DNA of 64,000 nucleotides from Euglena gracilis (Eukaryota). Positions 4,165 through 51,310 of this stretch are shown piece by piece; position 1 is the stretch's first letter; every line of letters begins with the position of its first letter. The stretch spans positions 40,045,572 through 40,109,571 of the forward strand of contig CP154954.1 in NCBI GenBank assembly GCA_039621445.1, in the 5' to 3' direction. Both the position numbers and the translations under genes were made by a program. Under the pieces are notes generated by a model, which saw only the letters and a program-made list of their open reading frames with translations, was not told the origin of the DNA and did not search any database.

Positions 4165-7100
4165 CCAACCGGCCCCTCTTCGGTGCCGGCGGTGGCGGCG
4201 GTGGGGTCGGACGGCGGGGCCGCGACCTCCAGGGGAGGGGAAGGGGCGCTCCCTGCGGGGGCATCCCCGCTGTAGGCCAGCGCTGGCAGGCGGGCCGATG
4301 CAGAGGTGGGGCCGGGGGGCCCCTGCGCGGTGGCGGGCCTGGCGGCGGGGGTTGGGGAGCCTGCACGATGCTGGGCGGCTGGAACGCTTCTCAGCTGGCG
4401 GCTTCAAAGACCTCCGGGGGGGGGGGGGGGGGTGGGATGTGCTCTGGGGGGCACACACTGTGGGGACGCACACTAGGTTGAGGAATTCCGGTGGGAAATG
4501 CTGGGAATTGGTCGATGGGTTTGCCTCCCCGACTCGCCCCCCAAAACAAGCGCCTTTTGGATGGGCCAACCCCAACCCATCCCGAGGCCCCCCAACGCCC
4601 GGGCAGGCAGCCACGGGTTGCCCACTGCCGCCGCCGCCGCCGCCGCCAGCAATGCCCGCCGCCGCCCTCGTGGGCCCTTCAGGGGCGACGACGGGCAAAC
4701 AGCCACCGGCCGCCGTTGGGGCGAAGGCTGTTTGTTGAAAGAGGGGTTTCCCCGTAACTGAGCCGACCAACTGCCCCGACCACTTCCTCAATCCTTCAGA
4801 GTTGACCGAACGAGGGTCTGAGAAATGGGCATGGGTTCATGGGTCATGAGTGGGTTCCACGGTTGGCGGCGTTCTGCCTCATTTGCTCACGCATGGGCAG
4901 GGGGGGGGGGAATGCGCTGGACGGCCCTCGGAAAAAAATGCGCAAAAATGCGCAAAAAATGCGCTGAGTTTGTGTGTGACATTCCTAAGGGAAAAAGGAC
5001 TTAGAAAAATTTCCGACAGTAAACCCAAAAAATGCGCATTCTTTGAAAAATTGACAAAAATGTGCAAAAAATGCGCAAAAATGCGGAAAAATGCGCAACG
5101 CATCCCCCCCTGCCTCATCGTCATTGGATGAGTACCCACAGCACATCATCCAAGGGTTTTCTCTTGAGGCGGGTCCCTTCGGTGAAAAAAAAAGTGCGAA
5201 AATGGGTTCGTTGGTTACAGAAATGGGTCAGTTGAACATGGACAAAATTCGGTGAGCATGTGATTTGGGTGGAAAATGTGCAAAAATGGCAAAATGTGCA
5301 AAATTGGGTAAAAAATGCGCAAAAAATGTGCAAAAATGGAAAATGTGCAAAATTGGGCAAAAATGCGCAAAAAAACGCGGAAAAAAATGGAAAATGTGCA
5401 AAAATGGGGGAAATGTGCAAAAAATGCGCAAAAAAATGCGCAAAAATGCGCATTTTTGAAAAATTGACAAAAATGCGCAAACAAATGCGCAAAAATGCGG
5501 AAAAATGCGCAGCGCATTCCCCCCCCCCCCCCCGCATGGGTCTGCTGCTGGGGGTGGGTTCAACGTTTTTGGTCCTGGGATAATCCGCCTCTCACAGAGG
5601 AAGCCACGGTCCCTGCCGCGGTGCGTCGGCGTACCCGTCCCCGTCGTGGAGGGGAACGGCACACAGCGCGGTTAGCTGCCGTGACTGCCGGGGCAGGCGG
5701 GCCAGCAGCGCCAGCAGCGCCGGTAGCGCAGCCAGCCCCAGCGCCAGGGACACATGGGAGCCCCGGGGGGGGGGGTCCGGACCCACCCATCTCGAAACCC
5801 CAATTTGCAACTTAAATAAATAAACCCCCCTCCACCTATAACCCCGGGGGTTATAGGATTCGATGGTCGGCCCCGGGAGGGGGGTTATAGGTGGGGGGTG
5901 GGTTTGGTGGGGTGGGTGGTTTTGCCTTTGTTTGCCCTACATTGAAGGGGGGGGGGTTATAGGTCCTGGTTTGGTGGTTGGTCCCCAGAGGGGGCTATAA
6001 GATGGGGGGGTTATAGGTGGGAGTGGGTGTTTAAACTGTAAACTTTTCGGTTCCTTGATCAAAAGGCTGGACACCAGCCCAAAACCGTTGGAAAACCCCT
6101 CATTTAAAAAAAACAAATGAAAAAAGGGGCTCATTTTAAACTTAAGATTCTCTTGACTTCTTCCCCCTCTCCCCCAGGGGGAAGGGCTTCCCATGGATCA
6201 GAGGATTTCTTAAGGACCCTGGGGGGTCCAGCCTCCGGCGGGAAAAAAGGATGCTGGCTGGAAACGAGCTGCTGGCTGTACCCCCCCCCCGGGGGGGCTA
6301 GGGGGGGTCCGGGGCTGGAGGGGGCTGTGCTGGTCTAAAACAATTTTGCCTTCTCGACATTTTGATTTTGATGGATGGAGGTAGTGTATGTGCCAGACAT
6401 TGAGGGCGATGAGAAAAAAAATGCAGGGATAGGTGAGCTGGGCAGCCCAGTTGGCTGGCCAGCCTGCGGCCAGCTGGCCCGGCCTCTGGCCGGGCTGGAC
6501 CCAACTTATTTCTCTCGACTCCCTGGGGGGGGCTCCCAGCCCCGATTTAGGCTGCTGGCTGGATTTGAGCTGCTGGCTGGGAGGGGACCCCCCCCCAGGG
6601 GATGGGGTCCCCTCCGGCTTAAGCAATCCCCTGCCATGGATCCCTGCCCAGCACGCCCACTGCCGCGTAGCCGGTGGCAGGGGCGGGGCCGCCGCTCTGC
6701 CACAAATGGCGAAGCAAGCCCTCCGCTGCCAACAGCGAGATCAGGTGGTTCCCTGGTGCAGTGGCTCGGACCACACCGGACCCAACCGCCCGGGGGGGGG
6801 GGGGGCTTCATTGGGACAATGTTGCCCCAGCGAATGGCCAAAAGCCTCGAAAAATGGGTTGCAGGTTCTCCCGGCAGTGTGGGGGTGCGAATTTGGAGGG
6901 GCCAAATTGACCCTAAAAAGCCCGGGGTCAACAAGCTGAGGGGTGGGGGAGGTAGGTGTGGTCCAACGGATGGCTGACAAAGGACCTGTTGTGGAAGTTC
7001 GTCCGAGAACGTTGGGGTTATACGAAGGAGGGTAAAACTGGTGTAACTCGGGCCAGGTGTAAAATCAAAATTGATACAAACAGATGCATAGGACCACGGG

Positions 7101-8612: not shown

Positions 8613-10351
8613 CCGCTGGCTGCGGCGGAGAGAAAAAAATTCCTTTTTGTTGGCCGGAAGTCTCAGTTGAAGTACAGAAATTCTCGGGAAAATTAATATA
8701 CATGAACCAGCGTAAAATCTGACCTGTCGATCTTGAGCCAACCGCTGCCAAACAGGTGTGGGGAGGGGGGGCACAACTCCTTGAGGGCTTTGGCTAAACC
8801 AAATGCCAGGGGGTTCCGTTCGAAGGGGTTCTGCGGTTTAATTCCAGTTGGTGGGCCCAGGGACCTTTCCAGAAACGCAGCTTTTGGTCGCTCCAGCTGG
8901 ACCCAAGGATGGTGCAAAAAAAAACCTGTCGAGTGTCTGCAGAGACTCCGGTCGGCCAAAAATTTATTCCGGGGTTTTATTCTGGTTTATTCTGGGGTTT
9001 TCCGGTTTATTCCGGTTTATTCCGGTGAATTTCTGCCTGAATGGACTTTGGATTTTTTGAAGTACAATTGGGCCGAGGCGCTCACCTGGGCTGCAGGAAT
9101 AAGGAAGCATTCCTTGGTTGCCCAGCCCCACAAAGTGGTCACTTTCTTAGGCGGCCGAATTCGCACTTAAGCTTTTTTCCGTTGGATTTGCGCAATTGCG
9201 CAAATGTACCACTTTTTTTGTAACCCCTGGGACCCTGTACCCTGACCGCCGAAAAAAAATTTTGTGATCGCGAACGGAACTCGTTAGGGTTGGGCAATTC
9301 GAACCCCTTCGAATACAAAGTCCTAACTGGACTTCGCGAACGAACGTACGTGTTAAATTTTGTACCTGTCCCTCTCCGCAGCTGCTTTCTTTCCCGCTGC
9401 CTGCGGGGCACCTATCTACACCCACTCTTACCCCACAGCTGCCCGCGGCAAGCACCTGGCCAGATCTGGCGGCGTACGGTTTTGGACTTTTGGGTCACGA
9501 AATGTGACCTGTGGATTCCAATTGTTTGACGGACGATGCATTGAGACAACCCTGGTGGATTTGAGAATTATTGCGAGGGTGTGTTGGGTGCCAGGACTTG
9601 CGAATTACGAAGCAATTGATTATGTTCGAAGAGGGGTATGACACCCCCTGTCTTGAAGGAGTGCGAGGAAACACCCATCGAATTAGAACCTTCCAGTTGG
9701 TGTACAACAAAAATTTACTTGTGGCAAATTGCACACTTGCGCAATTGCGCGCATCAAACGATTGTGTGTACTTTAATCTTTTGGGGTGCTAAGAGGGTGG
9801 GTGAGATGTCCCAAATTGTGTCATACATGAAGAGTGTTCTAGTTTTACTTGCGCAATTGCGCGCACAATTTGTTACTTTTTGTTGTGCGGTTACCCAGTG
9901 GGTGTTGTGTGACCAATGAAACACTTTGGACGTTATCGGTCACTTAGTGGAGCGAAGGGGGGCTTGATTTGAATGACTGCTGGAGATGTTGTGACTCTGT
10001 AGATGCTATGCTGACAACCAATTTGCGAGTGTGTGCGTGATGTGCGGGGTGGTTATGGCCATATGCTGATGTTTAATTGCTGTTCCCTTGTCTGGAGCTA
10101 ACCTACATGGCGGATGACCAGGCGGGGTACAGCTGTGGATTGTTGTGATCGTGTTTTCTTGTTGACTTGCGCAATTGCGCGCACAAAACGTTTCTGAAGA
10201 AAATAAAATGACTCAGAAGGATGTGTAGTTGCGTAGTGTGTGAATGTTGTGTGCGTGCGATGCATTCTGAGTGGTGGGAGTGGCCGGTGTTATGTTGACG
10301 GAATAGTGGGTTGGTGAAAGGTGGTGGGCCGCCGGACCTGGGGTGGACTGA

Positions 10352-13300
10352 ATGGAGTCCTCCCAGGCCAGCAGCACCCACTCCCGCCGCCGTGGCTACG
10401 AGGGCTACAGCGAGGAGGCCGCCCTGGCCGCGGAGTCCGGGAAGCTGCTGGGCCAGCTGGTGAAGGCCCATTTCGCCGCCAGCTACGACGAGTTCGTGGC
10501 GGCGGTGGTTCAGCGCGGCCACCCGCTGCAGACCCTGGTGGTGCAGGTGGCCCACACCCGGGTGCCGCTGCGGACGGAGGGCGGTGCGGCGCTGCTGGAG
10601 GAGCTGGCCCGGGAGCCCCGGCGGCCGCGGATCGAGCTGCTGCTCAAGGACGCCTGGGCGGTGTACCGGGCGCTCCGACAGCACGCCTGCCCGCGCGCGG
10701 CGCAGCGGGTGGTGGCGGAGGAGCACGAGGCGCCGCTGGCGAGGCACCGGGCGGCCAGCCGACTGCTGCGGCCCAGCGGGATCCTGCCGGAGGAGCCGAT
10801 GTGGAACCGGCAGTGGCGGCGGCAGCGGGCCTGCGAGCGCCTGGAGGACCTGTGGCAGCAGTCGGAGGGGCGAAGCTGCGTCCTGTGGTTCGACAACTTC
10901 TGGAAGCGGGCCATGACGTCGAACCCGAGGATGGTGATCCGCACCCACGACTGCTGCGTCATGGCGATGATGCGGACGGCGGTGGGCGCCATCCCGGAGT
11001 ACCCGGGGTACCCGTCGCTGGAGCAGCTGCTGGGCCGCGTCCACCGGGTGTCCGCGCGGCTGGTGCGCAGCGACCTGCCGGCGTTCCTGGAGCTGGTCGC
11101 CGAGATCGGCGCACGCCCGCTGGAGGCGCAGGAGCTGCGCGTACCGCTGGACGTGCCCCGAACATCAGAGGGACTGAATGGTTTTTTGTTTTCTTCGAAT
11201 AGCCTGTGTAGGTTGATGGGACGATGCTGGTGTGAATAACCTGTGTATGTTGATGCCGATGCCTGGGGGTTAGGGTTGTGTCCGGGTCCCAGCTGAAGGG
11301 AATTGAATTACACTGTGATGTGCGCGCAATTGCGCAAATGTTAACAATGAAGTATTTGAATTTCAGTGTGGTACGCAATTGGCAGGCGGTACTATACGCG
11401 GATTTCTGTTTTGTGGTGTCAGTCGCATTTGATTTGCGCATTTGCGCACACATGTGAATTTGGATGATTTTCAGTCCTGGGCCACTGTCTGCGTCCGTCG
11501 AATGTTTCTGAAGTAACTTTTGATGCGCGCATTTGCGCAAATGCGCGCATCAAAACATTTCAGGGTCCGTTTTGAATCAGAGGTGTGACTGTGCAGTTGG
11601 TGTCACGCAAAAGGCGGTGACTCTGATGCGGCTGAGAGAACGCCCGCGTCCCGGTGTGGCGCCCCTTCATGCTGACGGACGACCGGATCTCCTCGCAGGT
11701 GGGGATGCTGAAGGTCCTCCGGTTCCTGAAGGGCGACGTGCTGGGCCGCGTGAAGGCGCCGCTGCCCCTGCTGGTGGACATCAACCTCTGGTACCGCCAG
11801 CTGAAGGTGGTGTACGGCCGGGAGTGCCAGCGGTGGGACGCGGGCGAGGCGCTGCGGCAGCTGCCCCCGCTGTACGGCGTGTGGCACGCGTACAAGCAGG
11901 TGCTGTACGTGCTGTACCGCCGCCTGCTGCCGCTGTTCCTCTTCTTGCAGCGGGGCACCATGGCGCCAGGCGAGCAGTGGTCGACCAAGCCGAAGGTGCG
12001 GGCGCTGGAGATGTGGGTCGGCGCCATGCTGCTGGTGCCGGCGGACCGCCGCGCCCGCCTGCGACGGCTGATCCGGACCCTGCGGCGGCGGCGGGACACC
12101 GTGGCGCCGGAGGTGGAGCGACGACGGCAGCAGACGCAGCAGGCCCGGCGCAGGCAGGAGGAGGCGGAGCGGCAGACCGCCCGACAGGTGCGGCACGCGA
12201 CGGCCAGCGCCAAGATGGAGCGGGCGTGGCAGTCGGGGAGCCGGGAGATGGAGTGCATCCGGGCGCTGGAGCACTGCCGCCGGAAGGAGGCTCAGGCGGT
12301 GGAGGCACTGGAGCATCTGGAGCGGGACCTGGCGGTGGCACAGGCGTTGGAGGACCTGCTGGTGGTGTGGGCGCCGGCCTGCTTCGCGCTGGGGTGGCAG
12401 GTGCGGGAGTGCCACTGGGAGGAGCGGCGGCCGCAGACCGGCGGGCAGGCGCGGAAGGTGCTGTGCAACGCCCTGACGATGCTGCTGCACCTGGAGGCGC
12501 CGACACCCGGACACCGGCCGCGCGGCCACTCCGACTACGTGCGGACGCTGGCGTGCGCGCTGCTGATGTGGGACGGGTGGCACGAGCAGCTGCCCGCCTG
12601 CTGCTTCTCGGAGGAGGTGAACGAGGCCACCCTCAGCAGGCTGGGCGGGTCCATGCAGCAGCACCCGGAGGCGGTGGAGGTGGAGGACGTGATGGACCTG
12701 TACCTCCTGGTGAGGCAGGGGCACCACGGCGCCCGGGAGCTGCGAGCGGGCGGGGTGGACCGGCGGTGGCTGGCGGACTGCCTGCGCAACCTGGACCACC
12801 TGCTGGACGGCAGTGAGCTGCGGCCGCCGGTGGACGCCCCCGACCGGCTGGTCCACCAGATGGTGACGTACGCCTCGGTGAGGGGGCTGCGCCCGGAGCG
12901 ACGGCGACAGCCGGAGGAGCTGGACGCGGACGAGGGGGAGGAGTCCGAGGACCAGTCCGTGGTCCCGCGGTGGCCGGACGGCTGGGAGGGTCCGCCGTCC
13001 ATGCTGGCGCCCGACGCGGGGCTGAAGGGCGAGACGGTCCTGAAGGACGTGCTGCAGTACGCGCTGCGGACGCTCCTGAAGGACCAGGTGCCCTCCGCCG
13101 ACGCGGCGGCGGAGCTGGACCAGCTGTGCTACGACGCGCAGGCTGGCAGCAGCCGGCGGTCGCAGGCGGAGGTGGACCTGTGCCAGGTCCACTGGGACAG
13201 CGTGCTGGGTCGCCGCCGTCCACGTCAGCAGAGGGCTGCTGGGGAGGCAGCAGCCAGACTCGCGGTTGGTCATTTACTTTCTGGGGGGAGGGCTGTAATT

Positions 13301-14047
13301 ACTGCCACCGTTGTTCTGCTGACATGATTCACGGAGGAATACCAAAGTGTATTGTAGCATTTGCGCATTTGCGCGCATCAAACGTTAAGAAAAAATATGC
13401 AAGTGGGTGGTGATGCTGTCAGTAGTGACGTACCTTGTAATGATGATTACACTTTTTTATTTGCGCAATTGCGCGCATCAAAAACGTGAACTGTTTCACA
13501 TTGATCCCAATAGACAAGTGTGGTAGGCCCCTTCTGTGTATTGTGTCTGGCACAGAGTTCCTTCACACCCCCTTGAAAGTAATGACCCATCAGTCACAGC
13601 GTTTGCATACCTGTTACGTGCTCCGTGTTTGTTTGGGTAATTCTCTGTGTTCTGAAAGCCGGGGGAAAGGTACTGAACGTTTGTAGCTGTGTAGTTTTCA
13701 GAGTGTGACCGTTTTTGAGAATAGGCTGTCAAACCCCCCTCCCAGAAGCCATACATTGTGTTACATTTGCGCAATTGCGCGCATCAAAAGTGTACTTTAA
13801 AATTTCACTGCAGTGGGGCACTGCGAGTCTGCCGTTGCCCGTGGCTGCTGACTCGTCGTCGGAGGGGTCCCTGCGTGAGCGACCGACTCGACGGTCGCGA
13901 TTCGAATCACCAGGCCCTGACACGTCACCTCAGCGGCCGGGCGGGCGAGTGCAAGGCGGAGCGCGGGGCGGCCACCAGCAGTCGGGACACTGTGGAGCCG
14001 AGGGCGTCCCACGCGTACGTCCCGGCGGACCCCTTCCAGGGGTCTGA
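10352..14047 (+). CDS. Putative DDE transposase, 878 aa, 3 exons
   Basis: Exons 10352-11159, 11634-13251 and 13837-14047 join in frame through two non-conventional introns (2637 nt). Motifs in expected order: VLWFDNF (D1), PLLVDINL (D2), PLYGVWH (GxxH), SDYVR, FSEEVNE (E). The N-terminus could extend upstream. Confidence 0.75.
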
Positions 14048-14559
14048 CTGAGCGGATTTTCTGATGAGGCGAGGATTCAGTAACTTTTGATACAAGTGAC
14101 GCCACGCTTTATTTCACGGATCAATCGGTGCGCCGTTACGAGGTGCATGTGCGCCAAAAGAAAAAAATTGAAAACTCCCCTCCGTACGCCTTCTACATTT
14201 CCAAAAAAGCAGGCCTACGGACGTCCAACGGCAAACCGCCCGTGCGTTAGCAGTTACGCGACCTGAATGCGTGACGTGTCACCCCCGGTTTGTGTTGGGC
14301 ATTTTGTGACACAGACAGGCCGTGAAAGATTACAAAAACGTAGCATATCCATACCCCCCCTTGCTACGGACCAGAATAATGCATGTTGTGCGCTCCGTTG
14401 TACTGTTTCACAGTTTTTCTATTTTTTGCCTGAAAATGCCTAAGTCGGATGAATTTTTGCCACATTTGGGGCGGGTTGCCTCCCGTGGGGTGGAAGGCGT
14501 TTAAAATGCGCTTCATTCAGCTGTTGAATGTGTAGTTCAGTCACTGGTTAGAAACCCCC

Positions 14560-14590
14560 CCTTTTTGAAAATTGCCTCAGGTCGCACACC
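14560..14590 (+). promoter_or_regulatory. Putative spliced-leader trans-splice acceptor of transposon gene B
   Basis: Partly pyrimidine-rich stretch ending CCTCAG (14580), 10 nt before ATG 14591. Confidence 0.4.
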
Positions 14591-17500
14591 ATGGCCGACC
14601 CTGTGGCTGTCCCCCCGGAGGGGGAGCCCGCCGTCCCCGGACAGGCGGAGCCCGGGACCGAGGTGGCGGCGTCCGGAGCGGAGCTCGCCCCGGCCGAGCC
14701 CGCGGCAGCCCAGGAGCCCAAGCCCGCCGCCAAGCCGGGGCGGGTACGCCCCCGCAACACCGCCCGGAAGCTCCCCATCGCGGAGGTGTACAAAGAAAAG
14801 GTGGAGCAGTGGGTGCTGGCGACCAGCACCAAACTCCCCCTCGACACCCTCCACGTCGACTACGGGATGACGGAGGGCCAGACCCGCCCCCTCGACAACA
14901 ACGAAGTGGAGCGCAAGCTCCGGCAGCTGCAGCTCAACCCCCCGCTGGAGCCGGTGAGGGTGACGGTCTGGAAGAAGGCCGGTGTGTCTCTCAGTGTGAT
15001 TGTGTGTTATATGACTGTGTGAGGTGTGACGGTCTCTCTGACATCAGTTAGCCTGTGGAGTCTCTGTTGGTATGTGGGGCTCTGCTTTGGCCACTGTGCT
15101 TTGCATGGTTGGTACTATTTGATTTGCGCAATTGCGCGCACAAGCACACAATGCATTTTATTTGCGCAATTGCGCGCACAAGCACACAATGTCATTTGAT
15201 TTGCGCAATCGCGCGCACAAGCACACAATGTCATTTGATTTGCGCAATTGCGCGCACATCCTGCCACTGTTTTCACAGAGAACCACTACGTGCTGATGTC
15301 GGGGCAGCACATCACCTCGGCGCTGAAGCGCTGGGCGGAGGGCTTCAGGTCCCAGAAGTTGAACCCCCCGAAGGATTCAGCTCTGTATTTCTTTGTGTGT
15401 TTTTTGTTTTGCCCCTCCCATGTCACCCCTCTCGTGCAGCCCCTCTCGTGCAGCCCCTCTCGTGACGCCCCTCTCATGCCACCCCTCTCGTGTCGCCCCT
15501 CCTGTGCAGCCCCTCCCAGGTCTCGCAGACAATGGTGCAAATACAGGGCTGTGGCCAGGCGAAGTACGTCCTCGCCACCATCCTCCACCCCTTGACCCCG
15601 GTGCACCTGCGGCGGGCGGCCGGCGGGGATGCGCAGGCCATCCAGTTGTCGGTGAAGGAGCTGTCCATCCCCCAGTTCGCCAACCTCCTGGTGAAGGGGA
15701 AGGACATCAGCACAGTGCCGGCGGTGCGGCTGGCGGCGGCCTACCGGCAGGCCGGCTGGGACCGGTCGGTCCCCCAGGTGTGAGCCCAGTCCAGTACTTC
15801 TGCCACAGCTCCCATGCATTTAGTTAGATGACGTTGTTCCCATTTTATTTGCGCAACTGCGCGCATAAAAATGTTTCACAAAGACGTAGTGCATTGTCAT
15901 GATGTACTGGCGTAGGGTTCCAGTCTCTGTGTCATTGCCTCAGGGGCAGGTCATCCAGATGTGGGGGCCGCTGCAGCGGCTGGTGGAGGAGAACCCGGAG
16001 GCGGTGGCGGGGCTGCTGAGCGTCGAGTCGGCGCTGGCGGCGAGGGGCCGCACGCTGCTGTCCTCCCACGTGCGGTCCCTCCGGCGGCTGCTGACCCCCG
16101 AGGCGCGGGCGCAGGTGGCGGCGGCGCTGCGGAGCCCGGGGATCGGCCTGGCCCAGCTGGAGCAGGCGGTGACCGAGGCCACCCACGAGATGTGGTGGCC
16201 TTCGCGTGGCGGGGCGACAACCCCAACATCCACGCGCGGATGGGTGTGCCACTGGGGTCTGCGTGGGTCGGGGTTGCATATGAAGGGTGCCCATAGCATT
16301 GGACGGCGGTTGGTGGTGATGGTCACTGGGTGCATTGCAAGTGTGGTCACGTGCTTCTCCCCCCCCCCTTCACTGTTGTCTCGCAGTGCACAACGGGGCG
16401 GAGCGCAGCCGCTTCAAGCGGACCGTCCCGGTGGCGGCGCTGCAGGTGGCGAGGCTCGGGTCGTGGACCTGGAGCCCGGCGGAGCCGAAGCCCCCGCTGG
16501 CGGCGGTGCTGACGGCCCCCTTCTGGGTGGAGGCGCAGTACAAGGAGCTGCGGGCCACCTTCGCCTTCCCGACGGTGGAGACCGAGGTGGTGGCCAAGGA
16601 GGGCGGGGCCCTCCAGGAGGTGGGGGTGGCCCGGCCGGCCGGGGAGGAGAAGGGGGTGCGCTGCCTGGTGTACCAGGCCAGCGGCGGAGCGGTCCCGGCG
16701 GAGGCGCTGGGGGCCGCAGTGGCCTCGTCGCCATCGAGGTCACCCACAACACGGGCTCAGGGTTCTGTTTAAACGTGAGTCTTTTCAATTTTAGTAGTTT
16801 CTGTTTCACTTGCGCAATTGCGCGCACAAAAAAAAGAAATTCATACTCCCACTCTCAACAGAAACAGCTCCCCAGTTGTGTATGCAATTTTTTTTTAAAT
16901 TTGATGCGCGCACTTGCGCAAATGTTTTGTTGCACGCACTTGCGCAAATCCAATGACTCAAGGTGTCTGTCAATGCTCCAACACACTCTCAAACAGAATC
17001 CTGCCCCCTCCTGTCCGAGCAGGTCAAGCGCCTGGCCGGCGTCGTGCCGGTCGCCATCTACGGCGGTGCCGGGGCGGTGGCTGCGGTGGAGGCGGCGGTG
17101 CGGCGGCTGGCGCCGGGGCGGGAGTCGGTGACGGTGGACGTCTGGCTGCGGCAGGGGGGCCAGGGGGTGGCCCGCAAGTTCGAGAAGCGGGCCCTGGTGG
17201 TCGTGTACGGCCCGGGTGACGTGGAGCGAAGCAAGGTACCCACCCCACCTCACGCATTCTGCAGATTGTCATTCCGCATTTCAGACAGTGGATACTGGAG
17301 GGTCACCCATCCAGTGCATCTTTTTTAAAATGTGATCGTTTGATGCGCGCAATTGCGCGCACCTTATACAAGAAAACTCTTTCAGCCTTCCATGCCTGTC
17401 TGGTCCCATCGTGCCCTCGCAGGTGCTGCCCAAGGTGGAGTGGGACGTGGAGTCCAGCTGCGGGCAGGGGCTGCACTGGCTGTGCGTGGAGTGGCTGTGG

Positions 17501-18773
17501 CGGAGGGTGGCGCGGCGGATGGAGGCCGCCAACGCCATGGTGATCCAGACCACCGACGCCGCGGTGGCCGGCCGGGTGGCGGCCTGGGCAGCCAAGCCCC
17601 CGGAGGTGCTGGTGGTGGTGGAGGACTCGGCCAGCAGCCTGGAGGACGTCACCCAGACCGTGGCCAACACGGTGACCCTGCCCCGGCCCGTCGCCTCCGC
17701 CATGCTGCCCCTCCTGCTGGCCGCCCTGGAAGGGGGGGACGCCCTCTGGGCCCCCCTGGAGAACGCCGCCCTGCAGGACAAGCTCCGCCTGGCCGCTGAG
17801 GAGGCGGGACGAAGGGCCAAGGAGGCCGAGGAGCGGCGCCGCCAGACCAAGATCCGGCAGGAGCAGCGCCGCCTGCAGAAGCTGGAGGAGCGCCAGAAGG
17901 GTGGGGCTGACCGGAAGAAGAAGCGCCGGAAGAAGGAGCCGGAGAAGAGGCCCAGCAGGCCCCCAGTCCCCAAGCCCCGACGGGAGGAGACCGAGGCGGT
18001 GGACAGCCCGGAGGAGGGCGACGTGGAGATGACCGCGCCCGGCCGGGAGACCCCGGAGCTGACCCCGCCCGAACCCGGAGCCAGCCCCATCATCGTGCCG
18101 CCGCCGGTGGCCCAGCCCAGCCGCCACCCGGAGGAGGAGGAGGTGGAGGAGGACAGTAGCAGCAGCAGCAGCAGCAGCAGTGACAGCTCGGACACCTCCT
18201 CCGCAGTCGCCAGCGAAGCTCCCGCGGTCCCACCAGTGCAGCAGGGAGAAGAGGAAGAGGAGGAGGACACCATCGAGGAGATCACCCCCGGGTACCGGAA
18301 GCCGGAGCCGCAGAAGGGGAAGGAGCGACAGGGGGAGGAGAAGAAGGGGGAGGGCAAGGGCAAGGGCAAGGGCAAGGGAGCCAAGGAGGACACCCGGTGG
18401 AAGGCGGCGGGACTGATCCGTCCCCCGGGCCCGGGGGAGGCCCTGAAGCCTGAAGGGCCCCAAGTCGTACCACCTCCTCGACCCCAAGAAGTACCCGGCG
18501 ATGAAGCACATCGTCGAGGCATCCAAGGCCAAGGTGGCCGCGGAGGCAGCGTCGTCGCAGGCAGCGGCGGCCTCGGCACCGGCGGCGACGCAGGAGGCGG
18601 AGTCCGAGGAGGAGGAGTCCGAGGAGGAGGAGGCCCCGGCACCGCCACCGCCTCGTACCGCCCCGCCTGCGGCGCCCCGGAGCACCGTCCGCCGCGGGCT
18701 GCCCAAGCCCGGCGCCAAGCCGGCGGCCGCCTCGGAGAGCCTGGCCAAGCGGCTCACCAAGCACAAGAAGTGA
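14591..18773 (+). pseudogene. Transposon accessory gene: ParB/Srx-like N-terminus, possible degenerate methyltransferase fold, coiled-coil and acidic tail; two frameshifts in this copy (~965 aa if repaired)
   Basis: Exons 14591-14981, 15279-15374, 15557-15777, 15944-16243, 16387-16718, 17023-17235, 17423-18773. Spliced sequence GQTRPLDNNEVERKLRQLQLNPPLEPVRVTVWKKAENHYVLMSGQHITSAL. Frame is restored by adding one G near 16193 and removing the CCTGAAG duplication at 18442-18455. Confidence 0.7.
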
Positions 18774-20972
18774 GACTGGCTGTGGGCCTGTCTCAGCACC
18801 TTCTTCTTTTTTTTTCTTCAGTTCTACTCCCCACTCCATTCTCTGCTTCTCATGTTTTTTTTTTAACAAAACACATTTGATGCGCGCATTTGCGCAAATG
18901 TTACAGTTACAAGTTTGTTTCCCCCTCTCAGTCCCCTCTCGGCTATGGTCTGTCCCCTCTCAGAATTCTTGGTTCAAATAAAAAAGTTCATCGTTTGTGT
19001 TGATGCGCGCAATTGCGCAAATCAAATGCACACTTTGTTTTTTTGTTATTTGCCTGCCAGTTGGGAGACAGTGCCCCACCGCCATGGGTGTCCGTGTACA
19101 CCGCCCCCCTGCTGACCGTCATCCCCACGCCCTCTACCCTGCAGGGAGGTGGACTTCTGTTTTTTTTTTTTGTGGGTTGGTGTGACACACCCCCTCTCGT
19201 GACCCTGCAGCCCCCCTCTCGTGTCGTGCTGCCCCTCTCGCCCGTGTTCAAAAAAAAATAATTACCCCTCCCCTCAAGCACCGCCCCCCACTGACAACCA
19301 GCGCGCGGCGGAGTGCGGGGCGGCCCCCCTCCTCCTGTTCAGCCCCGGGCGGCCAGCGTGTACCCCCGCCCGCCGGGGGTCTGTTTGCCAGTCGGCCTTT
19401 TTTCTTTCCCCTCCTGTCTTTTCATCCCCATCTCTTTCAATCATGTGGTTCTTCCATTGGCACCCCTCTCATCCCATGGCACGCACACCGTCGTACGTTT
19501 TATTTGCGCAATTGCGCGCATCAACATCAATTATCTGTTTTGTGACTCAAAAAAAACAGCAAGGGCAAAGTAATGCGTGGCACGCACGCAAGCCTCCACA
19601 CACAGGCAACCAGGCCACCACTGACAACCCCTGCGGGCGCCTGACCCCCACCGCCCTGCCCGCCGCACACCACCCCTGCACACCCCCTGCACCGTCACCC
19701 CTGCACCCCTGGACCCCTCCTCCCCCTATCCCCTGCACACCGGACCCCCCAACCCGCACCCCTCCCAGAGCCCTGCCACCCTGTCCCCTGCTTTCTTCAC
19801 CAATCAAAAATTCCCAAGTCTCCAAGGTAAAAGTACACACACACACACTCCGAGGCACCGGGAGGGAACACACTGCCGGCGAGTTTGCTTTCCCAAAAAA
19901 GGCTCCGCGTCACCACAGGGGCGGGCAGGGTCCCGGTCCCCAGGTGCTTTTTTCACTTTTTTTCCGTTTGGGCGGGCAGGGTCCCGGGGGTTTGGCCCAA
20001 AATAAAATTTCTGGACACCCAAAAAAAGCCAGTTTTTTGTCAAAGTCCCAGGGGTCTCTCCGCCAAAACCAAAAAATCGCTTCGTTTTTGCCCCTGCTGG
20101 CCGGCATGTCTCTTGAACCCCCGGACCTTCACTGCCGGAATCAAAAAACCGGGGGATTTGCGCATATGCGCAAATAAAAAGTTAAATCCTTAAGTGCGAA
20201 TTAGGCCGCCTAAGACTTTGCACTTGGTGGTGCTGGTCTGCACACCACAGCAAATGCCTGCCTTTTCGGGAGAAATAAGCTGATAAACATTGGCGCGCCC
20301 AGGGTTTTCTCTTGAGGCAAGTCCCTGGCACCGCTTTCTTTCTTTCTTCCCAAAAATTGTCCCGCCGAGTGATAATTGCTTGTTCCAAGGTGCGGGACTA
20401 AAAAAAAACCTCATAAATGCCGCACTCATTGCGCAATGTCCCAGCGCAATCATGGGGTCGCTCAGCAGCAAAGCGAAAATCAACTTCCCTATTCCAATAA
20501 AACCCCCCTCCCCTAGAAAGTGCACGGGTGCGCACATTTTAAGGACGGTTTGGGCCCCAAGGGGTGCGCAATTATCAGGGCACTGCACACTTATCACGAC
20601 AAAGCACAAAAATGCTTAATTTTCCACCACTCTTTTTCAATTTTCTCCCTCCTTGCAATGTCAAGCAATGCGTCAAGTGATTATGTGTTGTATTTGGGCT
20701 TGGACAATAGAAATTTTGGTCTGAGAAGGACAATTCTGATAATGTTGTGTCCTTTTCGACCTGAGATGACAGTGATTTCTCCTTTGGGGGGGGTGCCGAC
20801 TTTTTAGGGAGGTAAATTCGGATCCTTTGGGGGGGGGTGGCCTAAATTGAATAAAGTGTCATTAACCACTTCACCAGTAGCTTGTGCTCGATCTCACGGC
20901 TGGCCCATTTGCACTCCATGAAAACACACCCACCACGTACCGTTTTTCTCCTCGCGCAACTGTTTGAGCACA

Positions 20973-21035: not shown

Positions 21036-22453
21036 TTTTTCTGCTGTCTTACAAGCTTGCTTGATGGCCTGGACATGCTTGCTCAACAATTTTGTCAACG
21101 TTGGGTCTTTTCGCAAATCAGACGCAGACCTGGAAAAAATCCAAACTAAAATTGAACAAAAACCTGAACGTGCCGTGCACATCAGTGCATTTGCGAAGGC
21201 ACCCCCTTTCACGCCTTTATGTTTGGCAGAAGCCACGTGTTTTGTGCCAAAGTTGATTTTTTTCACCTGCACTTCCACCCTGCAAAAAAATACATCACAT
21301 ATTGTCTGATCCTTCACAAATGCAAAACACTCCCTTGGGGAAATCCTGAAATTGCCTGGAAGCTGTCATTGCTTTTGTACATTTCGCCCCACTCACCTAT
21401 CCTTTGGAAGACCTTGATTTCTTCATTGGTGGTCCACGGTCCACCCTCTTCATCCAATCCATCTGACATGAGGTTGACTGAGGAAAATCATGAAAATGCA
21501 TTAAACTCCACCTTCATTGCCTTTGTGTCTTGCAGAATTTTCAAGCCGTTGGCTGGCACTTTTATTCCGGTAATTCCGGTTTAGACCGGAATATCTCCCT
21601 GCCCCTGGTGTCTGCTTTGATGTCGTTGGGCCATTTCACACCATCTTGGTGCGCGGGGGGGGGGGGGGGGCAGCAAGGAAATCTACACCACGATCCACAG
21701 AAATCTGAGTTGGAAGTTGTTCCAAGCCATATGGCATGCGGTGGTGGGTGCTGTCTCTCCAATGACATGCCAACCCATCTTGTAGACCCCCCAACATCGA
21801 TGCACTGCGGTGCCCATGGGGAGGGTAAAGCGCAGACATTTGGGCAGCGGCCAACCACCACGAAACGGCCACATACTAAGACGAAATGCGGGTAATGATT
21901 CCACTGCTGGGCGGTGAAAGGGTCAGACACAGGCACAGGTTGGGCGTGGTGAAGGGCGAACCACGAGACTGGCATTCCGACTTCGTTTGTGCCACGTGGC
22001 AAGGGAGGAGAGAGTGTACAGGCGGCCGACCTGGTGGGCAGTCAGACAACCAGACCGGGGAAAAGGAATCTGTTGTCACATTGGCTCAGAACTGCACAAC
22101 ACAGACACAAAGTCACGTTGTCTTGTCTTCCCGCATCGGGCTGGCCACGCTCGAAACCCTCCCCACCACCGGAAGGTCGCCTGCAAGCGGCTGGGATGGC
22201 CAAACAACGTGACAAACAGCCAGAGCAGAGGTCAGGGGCACAAGGAGGGCAGGGCCAGGGGCCAAAGGGGCCGGGGGGTCGATGCACCGAGGCTGCCCAG
22301 CGGCGAACAGCGGAGCTTCCGCACATGAGGGGCAACCCGCCTGCCTAATCCGCAGGAAAAACGCAGACAGACACCCGCCGCCGCGCGGCACAGACAATCA
22401 TTTGAAGTAAGTGTGCCACGGCAGTTGCGTCGCGGCGGAGTATATAACGCTTT

Positions 22454-23130
22454 GGCAGCTCCCAACTATACGGCCCACGGGTCAGATACTTGGGAGTGGG
22501 GGGGGTCGTATGGTGGGACCCAGGTCCGACCTTTCGAAGAAAGTCAGGGTTTTGATTGGAATAGGGTTAGGGTTCCGGCCGGCGGGCCGTAGGGCACCCA
22601 TTTTTGGTCAGGGAGAAGTTAGGTCGCATTCTGGACGAATTTGGGCCGAATTTAGGCCAAATTCAGGCAAATTTCGGGCGAAATGTGTTTTCAAAAATCT
22701 TCCGAAATAGAGACCTAACCTCTGGCCTAACTTACTCCCTAAATTTGGCTGATTCTTGGCACGCCAATCCTAACCGGCAGCTCCCCACTATAGGGCCCCC
22801 CCAGGGGGGGGCATATAGTGGGGAGGGGGGGGGGTCAGAATAGCTTTTTTTGCATTAATGATGGAGTAGAGTTAGGTGCGCGACTTAGGGTTAGGGTTAG
22901 ACCTAACTTATAGACGGGTGTTCGGTGTACAAGTTAGGCCTAACCCTAAGCCTAAGTCGCGCACCTAACCCTACTCCATCATTAATGCAACAAACACCCC
23001 CCCCCCTACTCCCAACTATATGGCCCCCCCTGGGGGGCATAGAGTTGGGAGCTGCCTCCTAACCCTAACCCTATTCCTAAAATTCAGCAGGAACCCTCCC
23101 CGAATCTGCCACCGGTTGCCGGAAAACCGG
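22454..23130. mobile_element. GGCAGC-terminal non-autonomous element, interrupted and truncated
   Basis: Starts GGCAGCTCCCAACTA; body is the reverse complement of much of 23754-24263; interrupted by the MITE at 22776-23056. Confidence 0.7.
22776..23056. mobile_element. MITE, GGCAGC termini, 8-bp TSD, internal TTAGGG/CCCTAA arms
   Basis: GGCAGCTCCC...GGGAGCTGCC, TSD TCCTAACC (22768-22775, 23057-23064). Confidence 0.88.
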
Positions 23131-23277
23131 TCATGTGCAAAGAAATGTCATTGTCAAATGTCATGTGCAAAGAAAACGGCATTTTGGGTGCGGGAAAATG
23201 CGGTTGATCTGGGCGGTGTGTCATAGACCAGCCGTGTCGGGGACAAAGGGGGTGGGAAGGTATGTGTAAATTTTTAC

Positions 23278-23552
23278 GGCAGCCCGAAACTACTGGCCCC
23301 TCCCGGGGGGCCCAGTAGTTAATCCGGGGGTCAAATAGTTTTTTTGCGTTAATGATGGAATAGGGTTATGTGCGCGATTTAGGGTTAGGGTTAGGCCTAA
23401 CTGGTACACCGAACACCCGTCTATAAGTTAGGCCTAACCCTAACCCTAAGTCGCGCACCTAACCCTATTCCATCATTAACGCAAAAAAACTATTTTGACC
23501 CCCCCGGATTAACTACTGGCCCCCCGGGGGGGCCCAGTAGTTTCGGGCTGCC
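23278..23552. mobile_element. MITE, GGCAGC termini, 8-bp TSD, near-fully palindromic with telomeric-type repeats
   Basis: GGCAGCCCGAAACTACTGG...CCAGTAGTTTCGGGCTGCC, TSD ATTTTTAC (23270-23277, 23553-23560). Confidence 0.9.
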
Positions 23553-23753
23553 ATTTTTACTTATTTTTGCCATCGTGGAGGAGGCACAAAAAAGTTTGTG
23601 GCCACACTGCAGTGTGGAAAAAACAACAGGTTTTCTCTTTGGTGCCGCAGTACTTGTGGCACTTGCAATAAACATCACCAGTCAGTAACAAAAAAAGTAC
23701 GCAGTGGCGGCACAAAAAACGTCATTCTTCTGGTTCTTCCACCAGCTCCAAAT

Positions 23754-24263
23754 GGCAGCTCCCAACTGTACGACCCGCGGGTCGGATAGTTGGGAGCGGG
23801 GGGGGGGGCATGGTGGGACCCAAATCCCACTTTTTGACTTTTCGGTCCCACGACGCCAGGAAAACGCGCGGTTTCCCGGCAACCGGTGGCGGATTCAGGG
23901 AGGGTTCCTGCTGAATTTTAGGAATAGGGTTAGGGTTAGGATTGGCGTGCCAAGAATCAGCCAAATTTAGGGAGTAAGTTAGGCCAGAGGTTAGGTCCTC
24001 ATTTCGGAAGATTTTTGAAAACGCATTTTCGTCCAAAATTTCGCCGAAAATTTGCCTAAATTTGGCCTAAATTCGGCCCAAATTCGTCCAGAATGCGGCC
24101 TAACTTCTCCCTAACTTCCCAAAAATGGGTGCCCTACGGCCCGCCGGCTGGATCCCTGACCCTATTCCAATCAAAACCCCGACTTCTTCCGAAAGGTCGG
24201 ACCTGGGTCCCACCATACGCCCCCCCCCCCCCCGCTCCCAACTATCTGACCGGCGGTCGTATA
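23754..24263. mobile_element. GGCAGC-terminal non-autonomous element, inverted relative to the 22454 copy
   Basis: Starts GGCAGCTCCCAACTG; the distal end matches the start of the 22454 copy in reverse but lacks the final bases. Confidence 0.7.
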
Positions 24264-25767: not shown

Positions 25768-26214
25768 CAGGGGGGGGGGGATGCGCTCGCCCGGCCTCGG
25801 AAAAAAATGCGCAAAAATGCGCAAAAATGCGCAAAAAATGCGCAAAAAATGTGCAAAATCCGAGAAAAAATGCGCAAAAATCACGAAAATGCAAAAATTA
25901 CCCAAAAACATGCAAAAATAGCACCAAATTTGAAGAAATTATGTAGAATAATGAGGAAAATGTACGTTTCAAAAAAAGTCAAAAATTTCAAATTTTTGCA
26001 AAAAATTGCAAAAATGGTCAAAAAAATGCGAAAATTTTGGAAAATCACGAAAAAATGTGCCAAAAAACAAAAAAATGTGCTGAAAAAAACGAAAAAAATG
26101 CGCAAAAAATGCGAAAAAATGCGCAAAAAATGCGCACTTTTGGAAAATTTGAAAAAATGCGCAAAAAATGCGCAAAAATGCGAAAAAATGCGAAACGCAT
26201 TTCCCCCCCCCCTG
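25768..26214. mobile_element. MITE with CAGGGG termini, 7-bp TSD, AAAATGCGC-rich body
   Basis: CAG(G)nATGCG...CGCATTT(C)nTG flanked by CACCCTC (25761-25767, 26215-26221). Confidence 0.82.

Positions 26215-51259: not shown

Positions 51260-51310
<51 letters not shown>

What the first reader, a model, noticed from the sequence alone, without database searches (positions are those of the whole stretch)
9146..20214. Candidate new system: eukaryotic transposon coupling a DDE transposase, a ParB/Srx-like protein and an element-wide array of parS-like palindromes
Seen: TIRs, 5-bp TSD, two co-oriented spliced genes and ~23 copies of one palindrome confined to the element's non-coding DNA. Known: bacterial ParB proteins load at palindromic parS sites and spread along DNA. 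Inference: the accessory protein binds these sites to coat, synapse or protect (anti-silence) the element. I know of no described eukaryotic superfamily with CTTAGG termini, a 5-bp TSD and this gene pair.
Basis: partly seen in the sequence, partly recalled or inferred. Interest (0 to 1): 0.92.

Follow-up and report, generated by a model that had tools for sequence, protein, structure and literature searches.

The report
Transposon with ParB-like gene and palindromes
An 11-kb mobile DNA element in a probable euglenid genome carries a likely transposase, a protein with the fold of bacterial ParB, and about two dozen copies of one palindromic motif; similar ParB-carrying elements were recently described in algae.

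Summary
Window 9146-20214 is an 11,069-bp element with 26-nt terminal inverted repeats (1 mismatch) and a 5-bp target duplication (ACTTT). Contigs that join the two flanks across one ACTTT occur in 2 of 4 sequencing runs laid. Two co-oriented genes have exons of 73% GC. There are 23-24 copies of a motif with core GCGCAATTGCGC, all in the element's non-coding DNA; no comparable match lies in the other 52.9 kb.

Gene A is conserved (about 800-890-aa relatives, no known domain) and has invariant D, D and E residues. It could not be folded, so "DDE transposase" is untested.

Binding of the palindromes by gene B's product is inferred only.

The concept is not new. ParB-like accessory genes next to inverted-repeat arrays are described in red-algal Plavaka and brown-algal Sola1 transposons. 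This element differs in host lineage, in an unclassified gene A family, and in motif copies dispersed through all non-coding DNA including introns and both subterminal regions. Verdict: new variant of a known kind.

The parts
9141..9145 (.). left copy of the 5-bp target-site duplication (ACTTT)
   Evidence: read directly; empty-site joint with 5 shared letters (table 5)
9146..9171 (+). left terminal inverted repeat, starts CTTAGG
   Evidence: 2 matches in the window, 0.00 expected, I7
9186..9205 (.). left subterminal perfect 20-bp dyad, beginning 40 nt inside the terminus
   Evidence: (8-bp stem, z -3.5)
10352..11162 (+). gene A exon 1; starts at ATG and holds invariant D at 10892
   Evidence: colinear with the N-terminal parts of 11 relatives; tblastn 34-54% identity; invariant residues
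11163..11639 (+). gene A intron 1. Probably a euglenid-type nonconventional intron (N3-CAG...CTG-N5, then a purine). Holds 4 motif cores. Absent from 12 of 12 relatives that cover the site.
   Evidence: 1 nonconventional and 0 GT-AG pairs in the stretch allowed by the relatives; 94 of 5000 random placements; signature from PMC12501133 (abstract passage); alternative GT11181..AG11636 not excluded
11640..13270 (+). gene A exon 2; invariant D 11777, E 12008, E 12611/12614, D 12695. The 3' end is uncertain: the frame stays open to 13327, and a further exon near 13813-14050 is possible.
14591..14981 (+). gene B exon 1: low-complexity N-terminus, then the first half of the ParB/Srx-like domain (invariant GQxR, PP, W)
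   Evidence: 38 relatives; GT14982..AG15278
15279..15374 (+). gene B exon 2, with the GQH motif at the position of ParB box II; 3' end uncertain
   Evidence: colinear with 6 uninterrupted relatives; splice options
15557..15777 (+). gene B exon 3; 5' end uncertain
15944..16243 (+). gene B exon 4. This copy lacks a G after 16193 that all contigs covering the site in X15, X16 and X20, and most of the depth in X1, carry, so the frame is shifted.
   Evidence: table 4; frames
16387..16774 (+). gene B exon 5. This copy lacks a G after 16720 that the one contig each in X15 and X16 and 4 contigs (a minority of the depth) in X1 carry. Donor GTGAGT at 16775.
   Evidence: table 4
17023..17235 (+). gene B exon 6
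17423..18773 (+). gene B exon 7: a conserved-looking start, then a long acidic/basic low-complexity tail. The frame changes near 18447 in this copy.
9177..20184 (.). Array of 24 motif sites; oriented consensus ATTTGCGCAATTGCGCGCA(T/C)CAAA. Cores start at 9190, 9739, 9851, 10169, 11324, 11436, 11527, 11535, 13363, 13463, 13769, 15126, 15164, 15203, 15242, 15851, 16812, 16908, 17347, 18884, 19007, 19506 and 20160, plus a weak site at 16925-16956.
15117..15258 (+). tandem array of 3.7 x 39 bp inside gene B intron 1, one motif per unit
   Evidence: 95% matches
20156..20175 (.). right subterminal perfect 20-bp dyad, ending 39 nt inside the terminus
20189..20214 (-). right terminal inverted repeat (1 mismatch to the left one)
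20215..20219 (.). right copy of the target-site duplication (ACTTT)

Best explanation
This is a cut-and-paste DNA transposon of a large, diverged family in a probable euglenid.

Shown:
- It has TIRs and a 5-bp TSD, and uninterrupted versions of the insertion site exist.
- Its genes have GC-rich exons.
- The ~24-28-bp motif is specific to the element within this window.
- The N-terminal domain of the gene B family has a ParB/Srx fold.

Inferred:
- Gene A (about 820 aa after splicing) is the transposase, probably with an acidic catalytic triad.
- Gene B (about 990 aa) is a sequence-specific accessory DNA-binding protein. As a dimer it recognises the GCGC-N4-GCGC core, both at the two perfect subterminal dyads (40 and 39 nt inside the termini) and at about 22 internal sites.
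- Occupying sites in every larger non-coding stretch would let the protein mark or coat the whole element. That could bring the ends together or recruit the transposase there, and/or shield the element from host silencing. This is the role proposed for ParB-like PAG3 in red-algal Plavaka elements.

This particular copy has an intact gene A. Gene B carries at least two 1-bp deletions, so this copy would depend on protein B made by other copies.
For: Mobility and family:
- TIR and TSD.
- Empty-site joint in 2 of 4 runs (table 5).
- In X1, 20,514 contigs were laid: 6312 at 99% or more, 7662 at 95-99%, 6540 at 90-95% (table 1).
- A loose end shows the same TIR start inserted at another place in a related flank (table 7, at 20365).

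Gene A:
- 14 relatives at E<=1e-3, six of them full-length (799-892 aa) and colinear with exon 1 plus exon 2.
- Only six acidic residues are invariant over the 10-14 sequences covering each column, in the order D, D, E, EE, D.
- Of the 40 best-supported differences from the family majority, 10 lie in exons (49% of the element's length). In gene A, 6 of 8 are synonymous.
- In the ESM Atlas, 25 of 30 nearest clusters carry DUF6589; score 0.91, 176 of 256 shared features. This is a lead only.

Gene B:
- Model of relative P0031 with 38 aligned sequences: pLDDT above 90 over about residues 60-170.
- Foldseek against PDB: 14 of 14 listed rows with E<=5e-4 are ParB, Noc or KorB.
- BFVD top hits are phage and giant-virus ParB.
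- ESM Atlas by structure: 8 of 9 rows are ParB_N clusters.
- PHROG 1033 'ParB-like partition protein' matches 2 of 6 members, best E 0.009.

Motif:
- TTGCGCAA occurs 20 times in element non-coding DNA, 0 times in exons and once outside. TGCGCGCA occurs 20, 0 and 0 times.
- The GCGC arms are invariant in 22 of 22 aligned copies, and the asymmetric extension is kept in 19 of 22.
- Two diverged relatives carry, in read-through non-coding tails, peptides that this palindrome would encode. These are P0010 (A-like) and P0047 (B-like), out of 67 proteins and 18,012 residues scanned.

Precedent: PAG3 with adjacent inverted-repeat arrays, whose best HHpred hit is the same PDB entry, 7BNR (10.1101/2025.02.11.637652).
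Against: - At the place of ParB's arginine-rich box II, the family has GQH..KA without the arginines (the ParB motif is recalled). A CTP-driven clamp is therefore doubtful.
- No sequence profile finds ParB. Pfam gave 0 ParB hits for 27 relatives at E<=0.1. PDB profiles and NCBIfam gave none.
- The fold was modelled on a relative, not on this copy's own spliced protein. By tblastn the relative is 52% identical over only 46 residues.
- Gene A has no detectable transposase signature and was never folded.
- Linkage of A and B outside this species is not shown. 30 B-like proteins were looked up and none shares a contig length with an A-like protein's contig.
- Gene B is frameshifted in this copy (table 4).
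Confidence: 0.55

Rival explanations
1. The palindromes are binding sites of the gene A product (subterminal and internal transposase sites). Gene B does something else, such as chromatin or DNA modification or a nuclease role.
For: The two best dyads sit at mirror-image distances from the termini, 40 and 39 nt, where transposase or cofactor sites usually lie (recalled). Gene B is broken in this copy while gene A is intact. ParB/Srx domains also occur in enzymes that do not bind specific DNA, such as sulfiredoxin and serine kinase, which are among the hits.
Against: About 22 sites lie far from the ends, spread over all larger non-coding stretches. That is not needed for end recognition. The algal precedents pair repeat arrays with the ParB-like gene.
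Confidence: 0.2
2. The motif copies have no function for the element. They are a self-propagating or recombination-prone short repeat (slippage, gap-repair template switching) that is tolerated only in non-coding DNA. Gene B is a captured, decaying passenger.
For: Of the 14 internal joints listed (139 more not shown), 8 have both ends within 15 nt of a motif core and 2 have one end (table 5; counted by hand). About 9% of the element lies that close to a core, so the motifs are break or recombination points. One 39-bp tandem array exists. Gene B is frameshifted here.
Against: The GCGC arms are invariant in 22 of 22 copies, and the asymmetric flank is conserved, while surrounding intron sequence is not alignable. 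The perfect dyads are placed symmetrically at both ends. The likely presence of the same palindrome in relatives with roughly 33-48% protein identity argues for constraint. B-like N-domains form a conserved family of 38 clusters.
Confidence: 0.12
3. The motifs recruit a host factor (the core contains TTGCGCAA, the palindromic site type of C/EBP-like bZIP proteins, recalled) to drive or insulate transcription of the element.
For: 20 exact TTGCGCAA in the element's non-coding DNA. Sites lie upstream of both genes (9190-10169 and 13363-13769).
Against: Sites are just as frequent inside introns and downstream of gene B. The conserved unit is longer (24-28 bp) and asymmetric. No host protein was examined.
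Confidence: 0.08
4. The motifs act at the RNA level, as hairpins that help fold or splice the element's introns.
For: 11 of 23 cores lie in introns of my model. Euglenid nonconventional introns depend on base pairing (PMC12501133 passages).
Against: 12 of 23 lie outside introns: 4 upstream of gene A, 3 downstream of exon A2 and 5 downstream of gene B or at the end. Both orientations occur, 14 and 5. There is no fixed distance to exon edges. Pairing beyond the invariant GCGC arms is broken in 19 of 22 copies, with no covariation above shuffles. Two introns lack the motif.
Confidence: 0.05

Closest known systems
Plavaka (EnSpm/CACTA-like) giant transposons of red algae with accessory gene PAG3 (Petroll et al., bioRxiv 10.1101/2025.02.11.637652; section 8 and methods passages read)
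   Same: A eukaryotic TIR transposon carries, beside its transposase, an accessory protein whose N-terminal domain is ParB-like only by remote methods (their best HHpred hit is 7BNR; my best structural hit is 7bnr_A). Arrays of inverted repeats lie inside the element. The same hypothesis applies: the protein binds its own transposon.
   Different: PAG3 is fused to a putative 2OG oxygenase and travels with PAG1 and PAG2; no enzymatic domain was found here. Their repeats are tandem arrays beside PAG3; here the copies are dispersed over all larger non-coding stretches, including introns and both subterminal regions. Their elements are 17-19 kb; this one is 11 kb. Gene A lacks the C(2)C and H(3-4)H motifs and the CA..TG termini that PMC12730594 gives for the clade containing Plavaka. 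The host is a probable euglenid, not an alga of that group. I could not compare the sequences: the preprint's supplements are closed.
Sola1-1_Ec32 of Ectocarpus, with a ParB-like/DNA methyltransferase gene (PMC12477816; passages read)
   Same: [quoted passage not shown] The authors propose a class of accessory proteins that bind and modify their own element.
   Different: That gene is fused to a methyltransferase, transcribed opposite to the transposase, in a 21.5-kb Sola1 element. No repeat array is mentioned in the passages I read.
Bacterial ParB-parS, Noc-NBS and KorB-OB systems (PDB 7BNR, 7BM8, 6SDK, 7NFU, 8QA8)
   Different: No sequence-level match. The box II arginines are replaced (GQH). 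No confident helix-turn-helix. No ParA partner. About 24 sites spread over 11 kb of a eukaryotic transposon. CTP binding and sliding are untested.
Accessory DNA-binding proteins of other transposons: En/Spm TnpA with subterminal repeats, PIF/Harbinger Myb-like protein (both recalled), and the VANDAL anti-silencing protein (cited in the Bostrychia preprint)
   Same: A two-gene design: a catalytic protein plus a sequence-specific factor that recognises short repeats in the element.
   Different: The protein fold is different, and the sites are not confined to the subterminal regions.

Membership tests
ParB/sulfiredoxin superfamily (gene B N-terminal domain) | ParB/Srx alpha-beta fold | tested here: met
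ParB/sulfiredoxin superfamily (gene B N-terminal domain) | match to the Pfam ParB_N profile (PF02195) or another sequence profile | tested here: not met
   0 of 27 relatives and 0 of the window's exons match at the thresholds used. PDB profiles give none. Only PHROG 1033 matches, in 2 of 6 members at E 0.009.
CTP-dependent ParB clamps (ParB, Noc, KorB) | box II G-E-R-R arginine motif and box III for CTP binding (motifs recalled) | tested here: not met
   The aligned position reads GQH..KA in the 6 relatives that cover it and in exon B2. Residue-level structural equivalence could not be printed.
CTP-dependent ParB clamps (ParB, Noc, KorB) | helix-turn-helix that reads the palindromic site | tested here: inconclusive
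CTP-dependent ParB clamps (ParB, Noc, KorB) | specific binding to the palindromes and spreading | not testable with these tools
   Needs EMSA, ChIP or DAP-seq and nucleotide-binding assays.
DDE/RNase H-like transposases (gene A) | three invariant acidic residues in the order D, D, E/D | tested here: inconclusive
   Candidates exist: D165, D303, E380, E583/E584 and D611 in P0002 numbering. Which ones, if any, are catalytic is unknown.
DDE/RNase H-like transposases (gene A) | RNase H-like catalytic fold | not tested
The single job accepted was the gene B alignment; five of the six refusals were gene A requests.
DDE/RNase H-like transposases (gene A) | match to any transposase profile | tested here: not met
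   Pfam, NCBIfam and a PDB sequence profile (coiled-coil matches only).
CMCT clade (EnSpm/CACTA, Mirage, Chapaev, Transib, Plavaka), as defined in PMC12730594 | [quoted passage not shown] | tested here: not met
   The invariant residues there are C515, H516, W517 and (in 6 full-length members) H519, i.e. C-H-x-x-H. There is no invariant C(2)C.
CMCT clade (EnSpm/CACTA, Mirage, Chapaev, Transib, Plavaka), as defined in PMC12730594 | termini 5'-CA..TG-3' and TSD of 2-5 bp | tested here: inconclusive
   The TSD of 5 bp fits. The termini are CTTAGG..CCTAAG, not CA..TG, a feature the paper says holds 'in most cases'.
hAT5 (hAT elements with 5-bp TSD, mentioned in PMC12730594) | hAT transposase and dimerisation-domain profiles | tested here: not met
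   No Pfam family in gene A, in 7 relatives, or in 59 other ORFs of the element. The 5-bp TSD alone fits.
Eukaryotic transposons with ParB-like accessory genes (PAG3 type) | ParB-like accessory gene inside a TIR/TSD-bounded element, together with inverted-repeat arrays | tested here: met
Eukaryotic transposons with ParB-like accessory genes (PAG3 type) | fused DNA/chromatin-modifying domain (2OG oxygenase or methyltransferase) | tested here: inconclusive
   No Pfam family in exons B4-B7 and no PDB sequence match. That part was not folded.
Euglenid nonconventional introns (signature 5'-N3-CDG ... CH'G-N5-6 | R, PMC12501133) | signature at both ends, in frame | tested here: met
   Gene A intron 11163-11639. 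It is the only in-frame pair in the stretch allowed by the relatives; chance is 94 of 5000. No RNA evidence.

The most novel reading that the evidence does not exclude
Gene A founds an undescribed superfamily of eukaryotic cut-and-paste transposases (CTTAGG termini, 5-bp TSD, no known signature). The element also runs a true ParB-parS-like system in a eukaryotic nucleus. In this reading a nucleotide-gated ParB-fold protein loads at about 24 sites placed in every larger non-coding stretch. One of these stretches is an intron that 12 of 12 relatives lack in the transposase gene. The protein would coat the whole 11-kb element for self-recognition, end pairing or anti-silencing.
Probability: 0.2. 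Interest if true: 0.85.

Novelty: new variant of a known kind. Interest (0 to 1): 0.55.

Why it matters
ParB-like accessory genes in eukaryotic transposons were noticed only recently, in algae, and nobody has tested what they do.

This element is a compact and unusually legible case:
- it is 11 kb with two genes;
- the binding-site candidate is sharply defined and absent from the surrounding 53 kb;
- perfect dyads sit at mirror positions near both ends;
- the family is large and diverged, with signs of recent insertion.

It would extend the phenomenon to a probable euglenid and to a gene A family that fits no superfamily I could test. That supports the view that ParB-type modules move between unrelated transposon lineages.

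It makes one question directly testable with oligonucleotides and one recombinant domain: does a eukaryotic transposon use a ParB-like protein to recognise its own DNA?

The intron in gene A is absent from all relatives and carries four motif cores. It also bears on how euglenid nonconventional introns arise.

Tried and rejected
Tools not available:
- No whole genome is held, so the inside-versus-outside count is limited to this 64-kb window.
Only the gene B alignment was folded, so gene A was never folded.

Searches for related DNA that found nothing useful:
- Gene A patterns in metagenome contigs: 126 pattern matches, 0 confirmed.
- Gene A patterns in viral contigs: 62 pattern matches, 0 confirmed.
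- The gene B alignment was too variable to scan with.
- The 17-mer motif in metagenome contigs: 120 loci, each with one exact match (the regex core occurs at most 3 times per locus), and no A or B relatives by tblastn.
- Two 18-mers in viral contigs: 3 and 19 loci, single sites, no relatives.

Protein searches that added nothing:
- A search with the start of exon B7 for longer proteins found nothing.
- A profile search with the gene A family added only fragments.
- PADLOC gave nothing meaningful.

RNA:
- Rfam gave 0 matches and there are no tRNA genes.
- Runs X15 and X16, guessed to be RNA, cover introns and spacers and show no splice joints, so they behave like DNA.
- X20 (leaf-litter RNA library, share 0.09) gave 52 contigs, mostly 90-99% alike. 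They also cover spacer and intron, so it shows neither transcription nor splicing.

Linkage: contig-length matching of 30 B-like proteins found nothing.

Host identity: Pfam on 16 long ORFs elsewhere in the window gave nothing usable.

MITE/introner idea: I considered that each motif marks an inserted MITE or introner. I rejected it as the general explanation because similarity between copies ends after about 30-44 nt and no flanking duplications were seen.
Full report
**Anatomy**

The element spans window 9146-20214 (11,069 bp). Its 26-nt ends are inverted copies with one mismatch, and this sequence occurs nowhere else in the 64 kb. Ungapped extension gives 32 nt at 91% (I7). ACTTT flanks both ends, at 9141-9145 and 20215-20219.

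Four public runs were laid on the region, all as contigs. Two of them hold contigs that join 9140 directly to 20215, with five letters fitting either side: 2 contigs in X1 and 1 in X15. That is the uninterrupted site with a single ACTTT (table 5). The flanks are themselves repeated, so this site may be a paralogue and not an allele. Either way it confirms the insertion and the 5-bp duplication.

In X1, 20,514 contigs lie on the stretch, spread over the 99+, 95-99 and 90-95% identity classes (table 1). The family is therefore large and diverged. A loose end shows the same TIR start inserted elsewhere in a related flank (table 7, at 20365).

**The motif**

GCGCAATTGCGC with up to one mismatch occurs 23 times in the window, 22 of them inside the element; 0.18 are expected. 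With the right subterminal GCGCATATGCGC there are 23 cores.

A sequence-only covariance model of the 40-nt unit finds 24 distinct sites, all between 9177 and 20184. The best match in the other 52.9 kb has E=0.4. The model was built from 22 of these sites, so only the absence outside counts as evidence.

- TTGCGCAA occurs 20 times in the element's non-coding DNA, 0 times in exons and once outside. TGCGCGCA occurs 20, 0 and 0 times.
- None of the 23 cores lies in an exon of my model, although exons make up 49% of the element.
- Oriented, the unit reads ATTTGCGCAATTGCGCGCA(T/C)CAAA: 14 copies point one way and 5 the other.
- The two terminal copies are perfect 20-bp dyads placed 40 and 39 nt inside the termini.
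- The GCGC arms are invariant in 22 of 22 aligned copies. The outer dyad is broken in the same way in 19 of 22, and there is no covariation above shuffles.

This pattern points to recognition of a sequence. It does not point to selection for a hairpin. There is no fixed distance to exon edges.

**Gene A**

Exon 1 (10352-11162) and exon 2 (11640-13270) are colinear with six full-length proteins of 799-892 aa and with eight fragments from metagenome collections, at 33-69% identity. All 12 relatives that cover the junction are uninterrupted there.

In the narrow stretch that this alignment allows, there is no in-frame GT-AG pair. There is exactly one pair that fits the published Euglena nonconventional-intron signature, 11163-11639 (signature from the PMC12501133 abstract passage). 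Such a pair arises in 94 of 5000 random placements. A GT11181..AG11636 intron that adds six residues is not excluded.

Exon GC is 73%, against 51% for the element's non-coding DNA and for the rest of the window. Together with the intron signature, this makes a euglenid host plausible but not proven.

No known family matches gene A. I tried Pfam on the exons, on 7 relatives and on 59 further ORFs of both strands. I also tried NCBIfam and a profile against PDB sequences, which gave coiled-coil matches only.

Only six acidic residues are invariant across the 10-14 sequences that cover each column: D165, D303, E380, E583, E584 and D611 in P0002 numbering. A W-H pair 35 residues after D303 and a C-H-W-x-H motif are also conserved.

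The C(2)C and H(3-4)H motifs that PMC12730594 gives for the EnSpm/Transib/Plavaka clade are absent, and the termini are not CA..TG (passages read). According to that paper, 5-bp duplications are known for Transib-type and hAT5 elements (passages read).

The ESM Atlas places 25 of its 30 nearest clusters in DUF6589, an uncharacterised eukaryotic domain, with score 0.91 and 176 shared features. This is a lead that I could not test.

Among the 40 best-supported differences between this copy and the family majority (630 more not shown), 10 fall in exons. In gene A, 6 of 8 are synonymous, which suggests purifying selection.

'Transposase' therefore rests on context and conservation, and 'DDE' is a guess.

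**Gene B**

My model has seven exons, about 990 codons in total. All contigs covering the site in X15, X16 and X20, and most of the depth in X1, carry an extra G after 16193. The one contig each in X15 and X16, and 4 contigs making a minority of the depth in X1, carry one after 16720 (table 4). The frame also changes near 18447. In this copy gene B is therefore a pseudogene.

Exon 1 finds 38 relatives among 1.84 billion representatives. In the alignment, 29 of 35 stop or diverge exactly where exon 1 ends. The other 6 run on and are colinear with exons 2 and 3. Invariant positions are G-Q-x-R, a P and a W, and in the six long relatives Q-H and A.

A model of the relative P0031, built with this alignment, is confident (pLDDT above 90) over residues about 60-170.

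- Foldseek against PDB: 14 of the 14 listed rows with E<=5e-4 are ParB, Noc or KorB.
- BFVD and the ESM Atlas agree.

At the sequence level only PHROG 1033 matches, weakly, in 2 of 6 members at E 0.009. Pfam, NCBIfam and PDB profiles find nothing.

The part after the domain is modelled poorly. Where ParB has its arginine-rich box II (recalled), this family has GQH..KA. So the fold is well supported, but CTP-clamp behaviour is not. No enzymatic domain was detected in exons 4-7.

**Do protein and motif belong together?**

There is no direct evidence. The indirect evidence is as follows.

- The motif is confined to the element.
- Dyads sit symmetrically near both ends.
- Two diverged relatives carry peptides that this very palindrome would encode, in tails that read through into non-coding DNA. 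One is an A-like protein. The other is a B-like protein, about 15 residues past the end of exon 1. These were the only such cases in 67 proteins and 18,012 residues, besides one match inside a real domain.

Codon degeneracy makes the last point suggestive only.

The motifs are also break points. Of the 14 internal joints listed (139 more not shown), 8 have both ends within 15 nt of a core and 2 have one end (table 5; counted by hand). Deletion derivatives therefore seem to form between motif copies.

**What is known**

- The Bostrychia genome preprint (section 8 and methods passages read) describes giant Plavaka transposons. [quoted passage not shown] The authors propose that PAG3 binds its own element. 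They also report that these accessory genes move between Plavaka, Mutator, Zisupton and Fanzor-bearing elements.
- The Ectocarpus study (passages) describes a ParB-like/methyltransferase gene in a Sola1 element, and cites earlier reports from green and red algae.
- A 2015 review (PMC4738411, passages) notes ParB-HTH fusions to adenine methylases in chlorophytes and chytrids.

For euglenids, my searches listed no such report in titles or abstract starts. The one DNA-transposon paper I opened reports Merlin elements with 8-bp duplications in Euglena gracilis (PMC8101967, passages).

**Verdict**

This is a real and well-delimited transposon. The ParB/Srx fold of its accessory protein is supported. 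The motif array is striking and element-specific within this window. The binding hypothesis is reasonable but untested. The 'DDE' label is unverified.

It is a new variant of a kind that has just entered the literature, and not a new system. What is new is the probable host lineage, an unclassified gene A family with CTTAGG termini, the absence of a recognisable fused enzyme, and the dispersal of the sites through all larger non-coding stretches. One of those stretches is an intron of gene A that relatives lack.

Noticed in passing
window 4900-5529 and 25770-26215: Two copies of a short MITE-like element. The first has perfect 20-nt inverted ends (a G run followed by AATGCGCTG). The interior is filled with AAAAATGCGC units spaced about 10-11 bp apart. 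It shares the TGCGCAAA half-site with the transposon's palindrome but is a different family.
   Followed up: partly
window 11163-11639: The intron in gene A carries 4 motif cores, fits the Euglena nonconventional-intron signature, and is absent from all 12 relatives that cover the site. It looks like a lineage-specific intron gain inside a transposase gene.
   Followed up: partly
window 14981/14982 (end of gene B exon 1): 29 of 35 diverged relatives of gene B's first exon stop or diverge at exactly this point. This suggests an old, conserved intron position in this protein family; 6 relatives lack it.
   Followed up: partly
window 22453-24233: A nest of long inverted repeats (arms of 73-150 nt, 91-96% complementary), probably a foldback-type repeat (I1-I6).
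   Followed up: no
window 46453-57207, minus strand: Six related ~77-nt segments, each apparently one short exon. One translation reads like a single RNI-type leucine-rich repeat unit (recalled pattern). Pfam found nothing on the long ORFs there (D6, 54, 124).
   Followed up: partly
window 8963-9026: A TTTATTCCGG 10-mer array (5 copies) just left of the insertion. The bin that contains it has the highest summed contig depth in run X1. The element therefore sits in or beside another repeat.
   Followed up: no
window 20365 (right flank): A contig of run X1 follows the flank to 20365 and then continues into the start of the same TIR. This is an independent insertion of the family in a related copy of the flank (table 7).
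   Followed up: no
window 15411-15515 and 19100-19800: C-rich 14-nt repeats (CCCCTCTCGTGCAG, 6-7 copies) in gene B intron 2, and similar C-rich tracts downstream of gene B. Their function is unknown.
   Followed up: no
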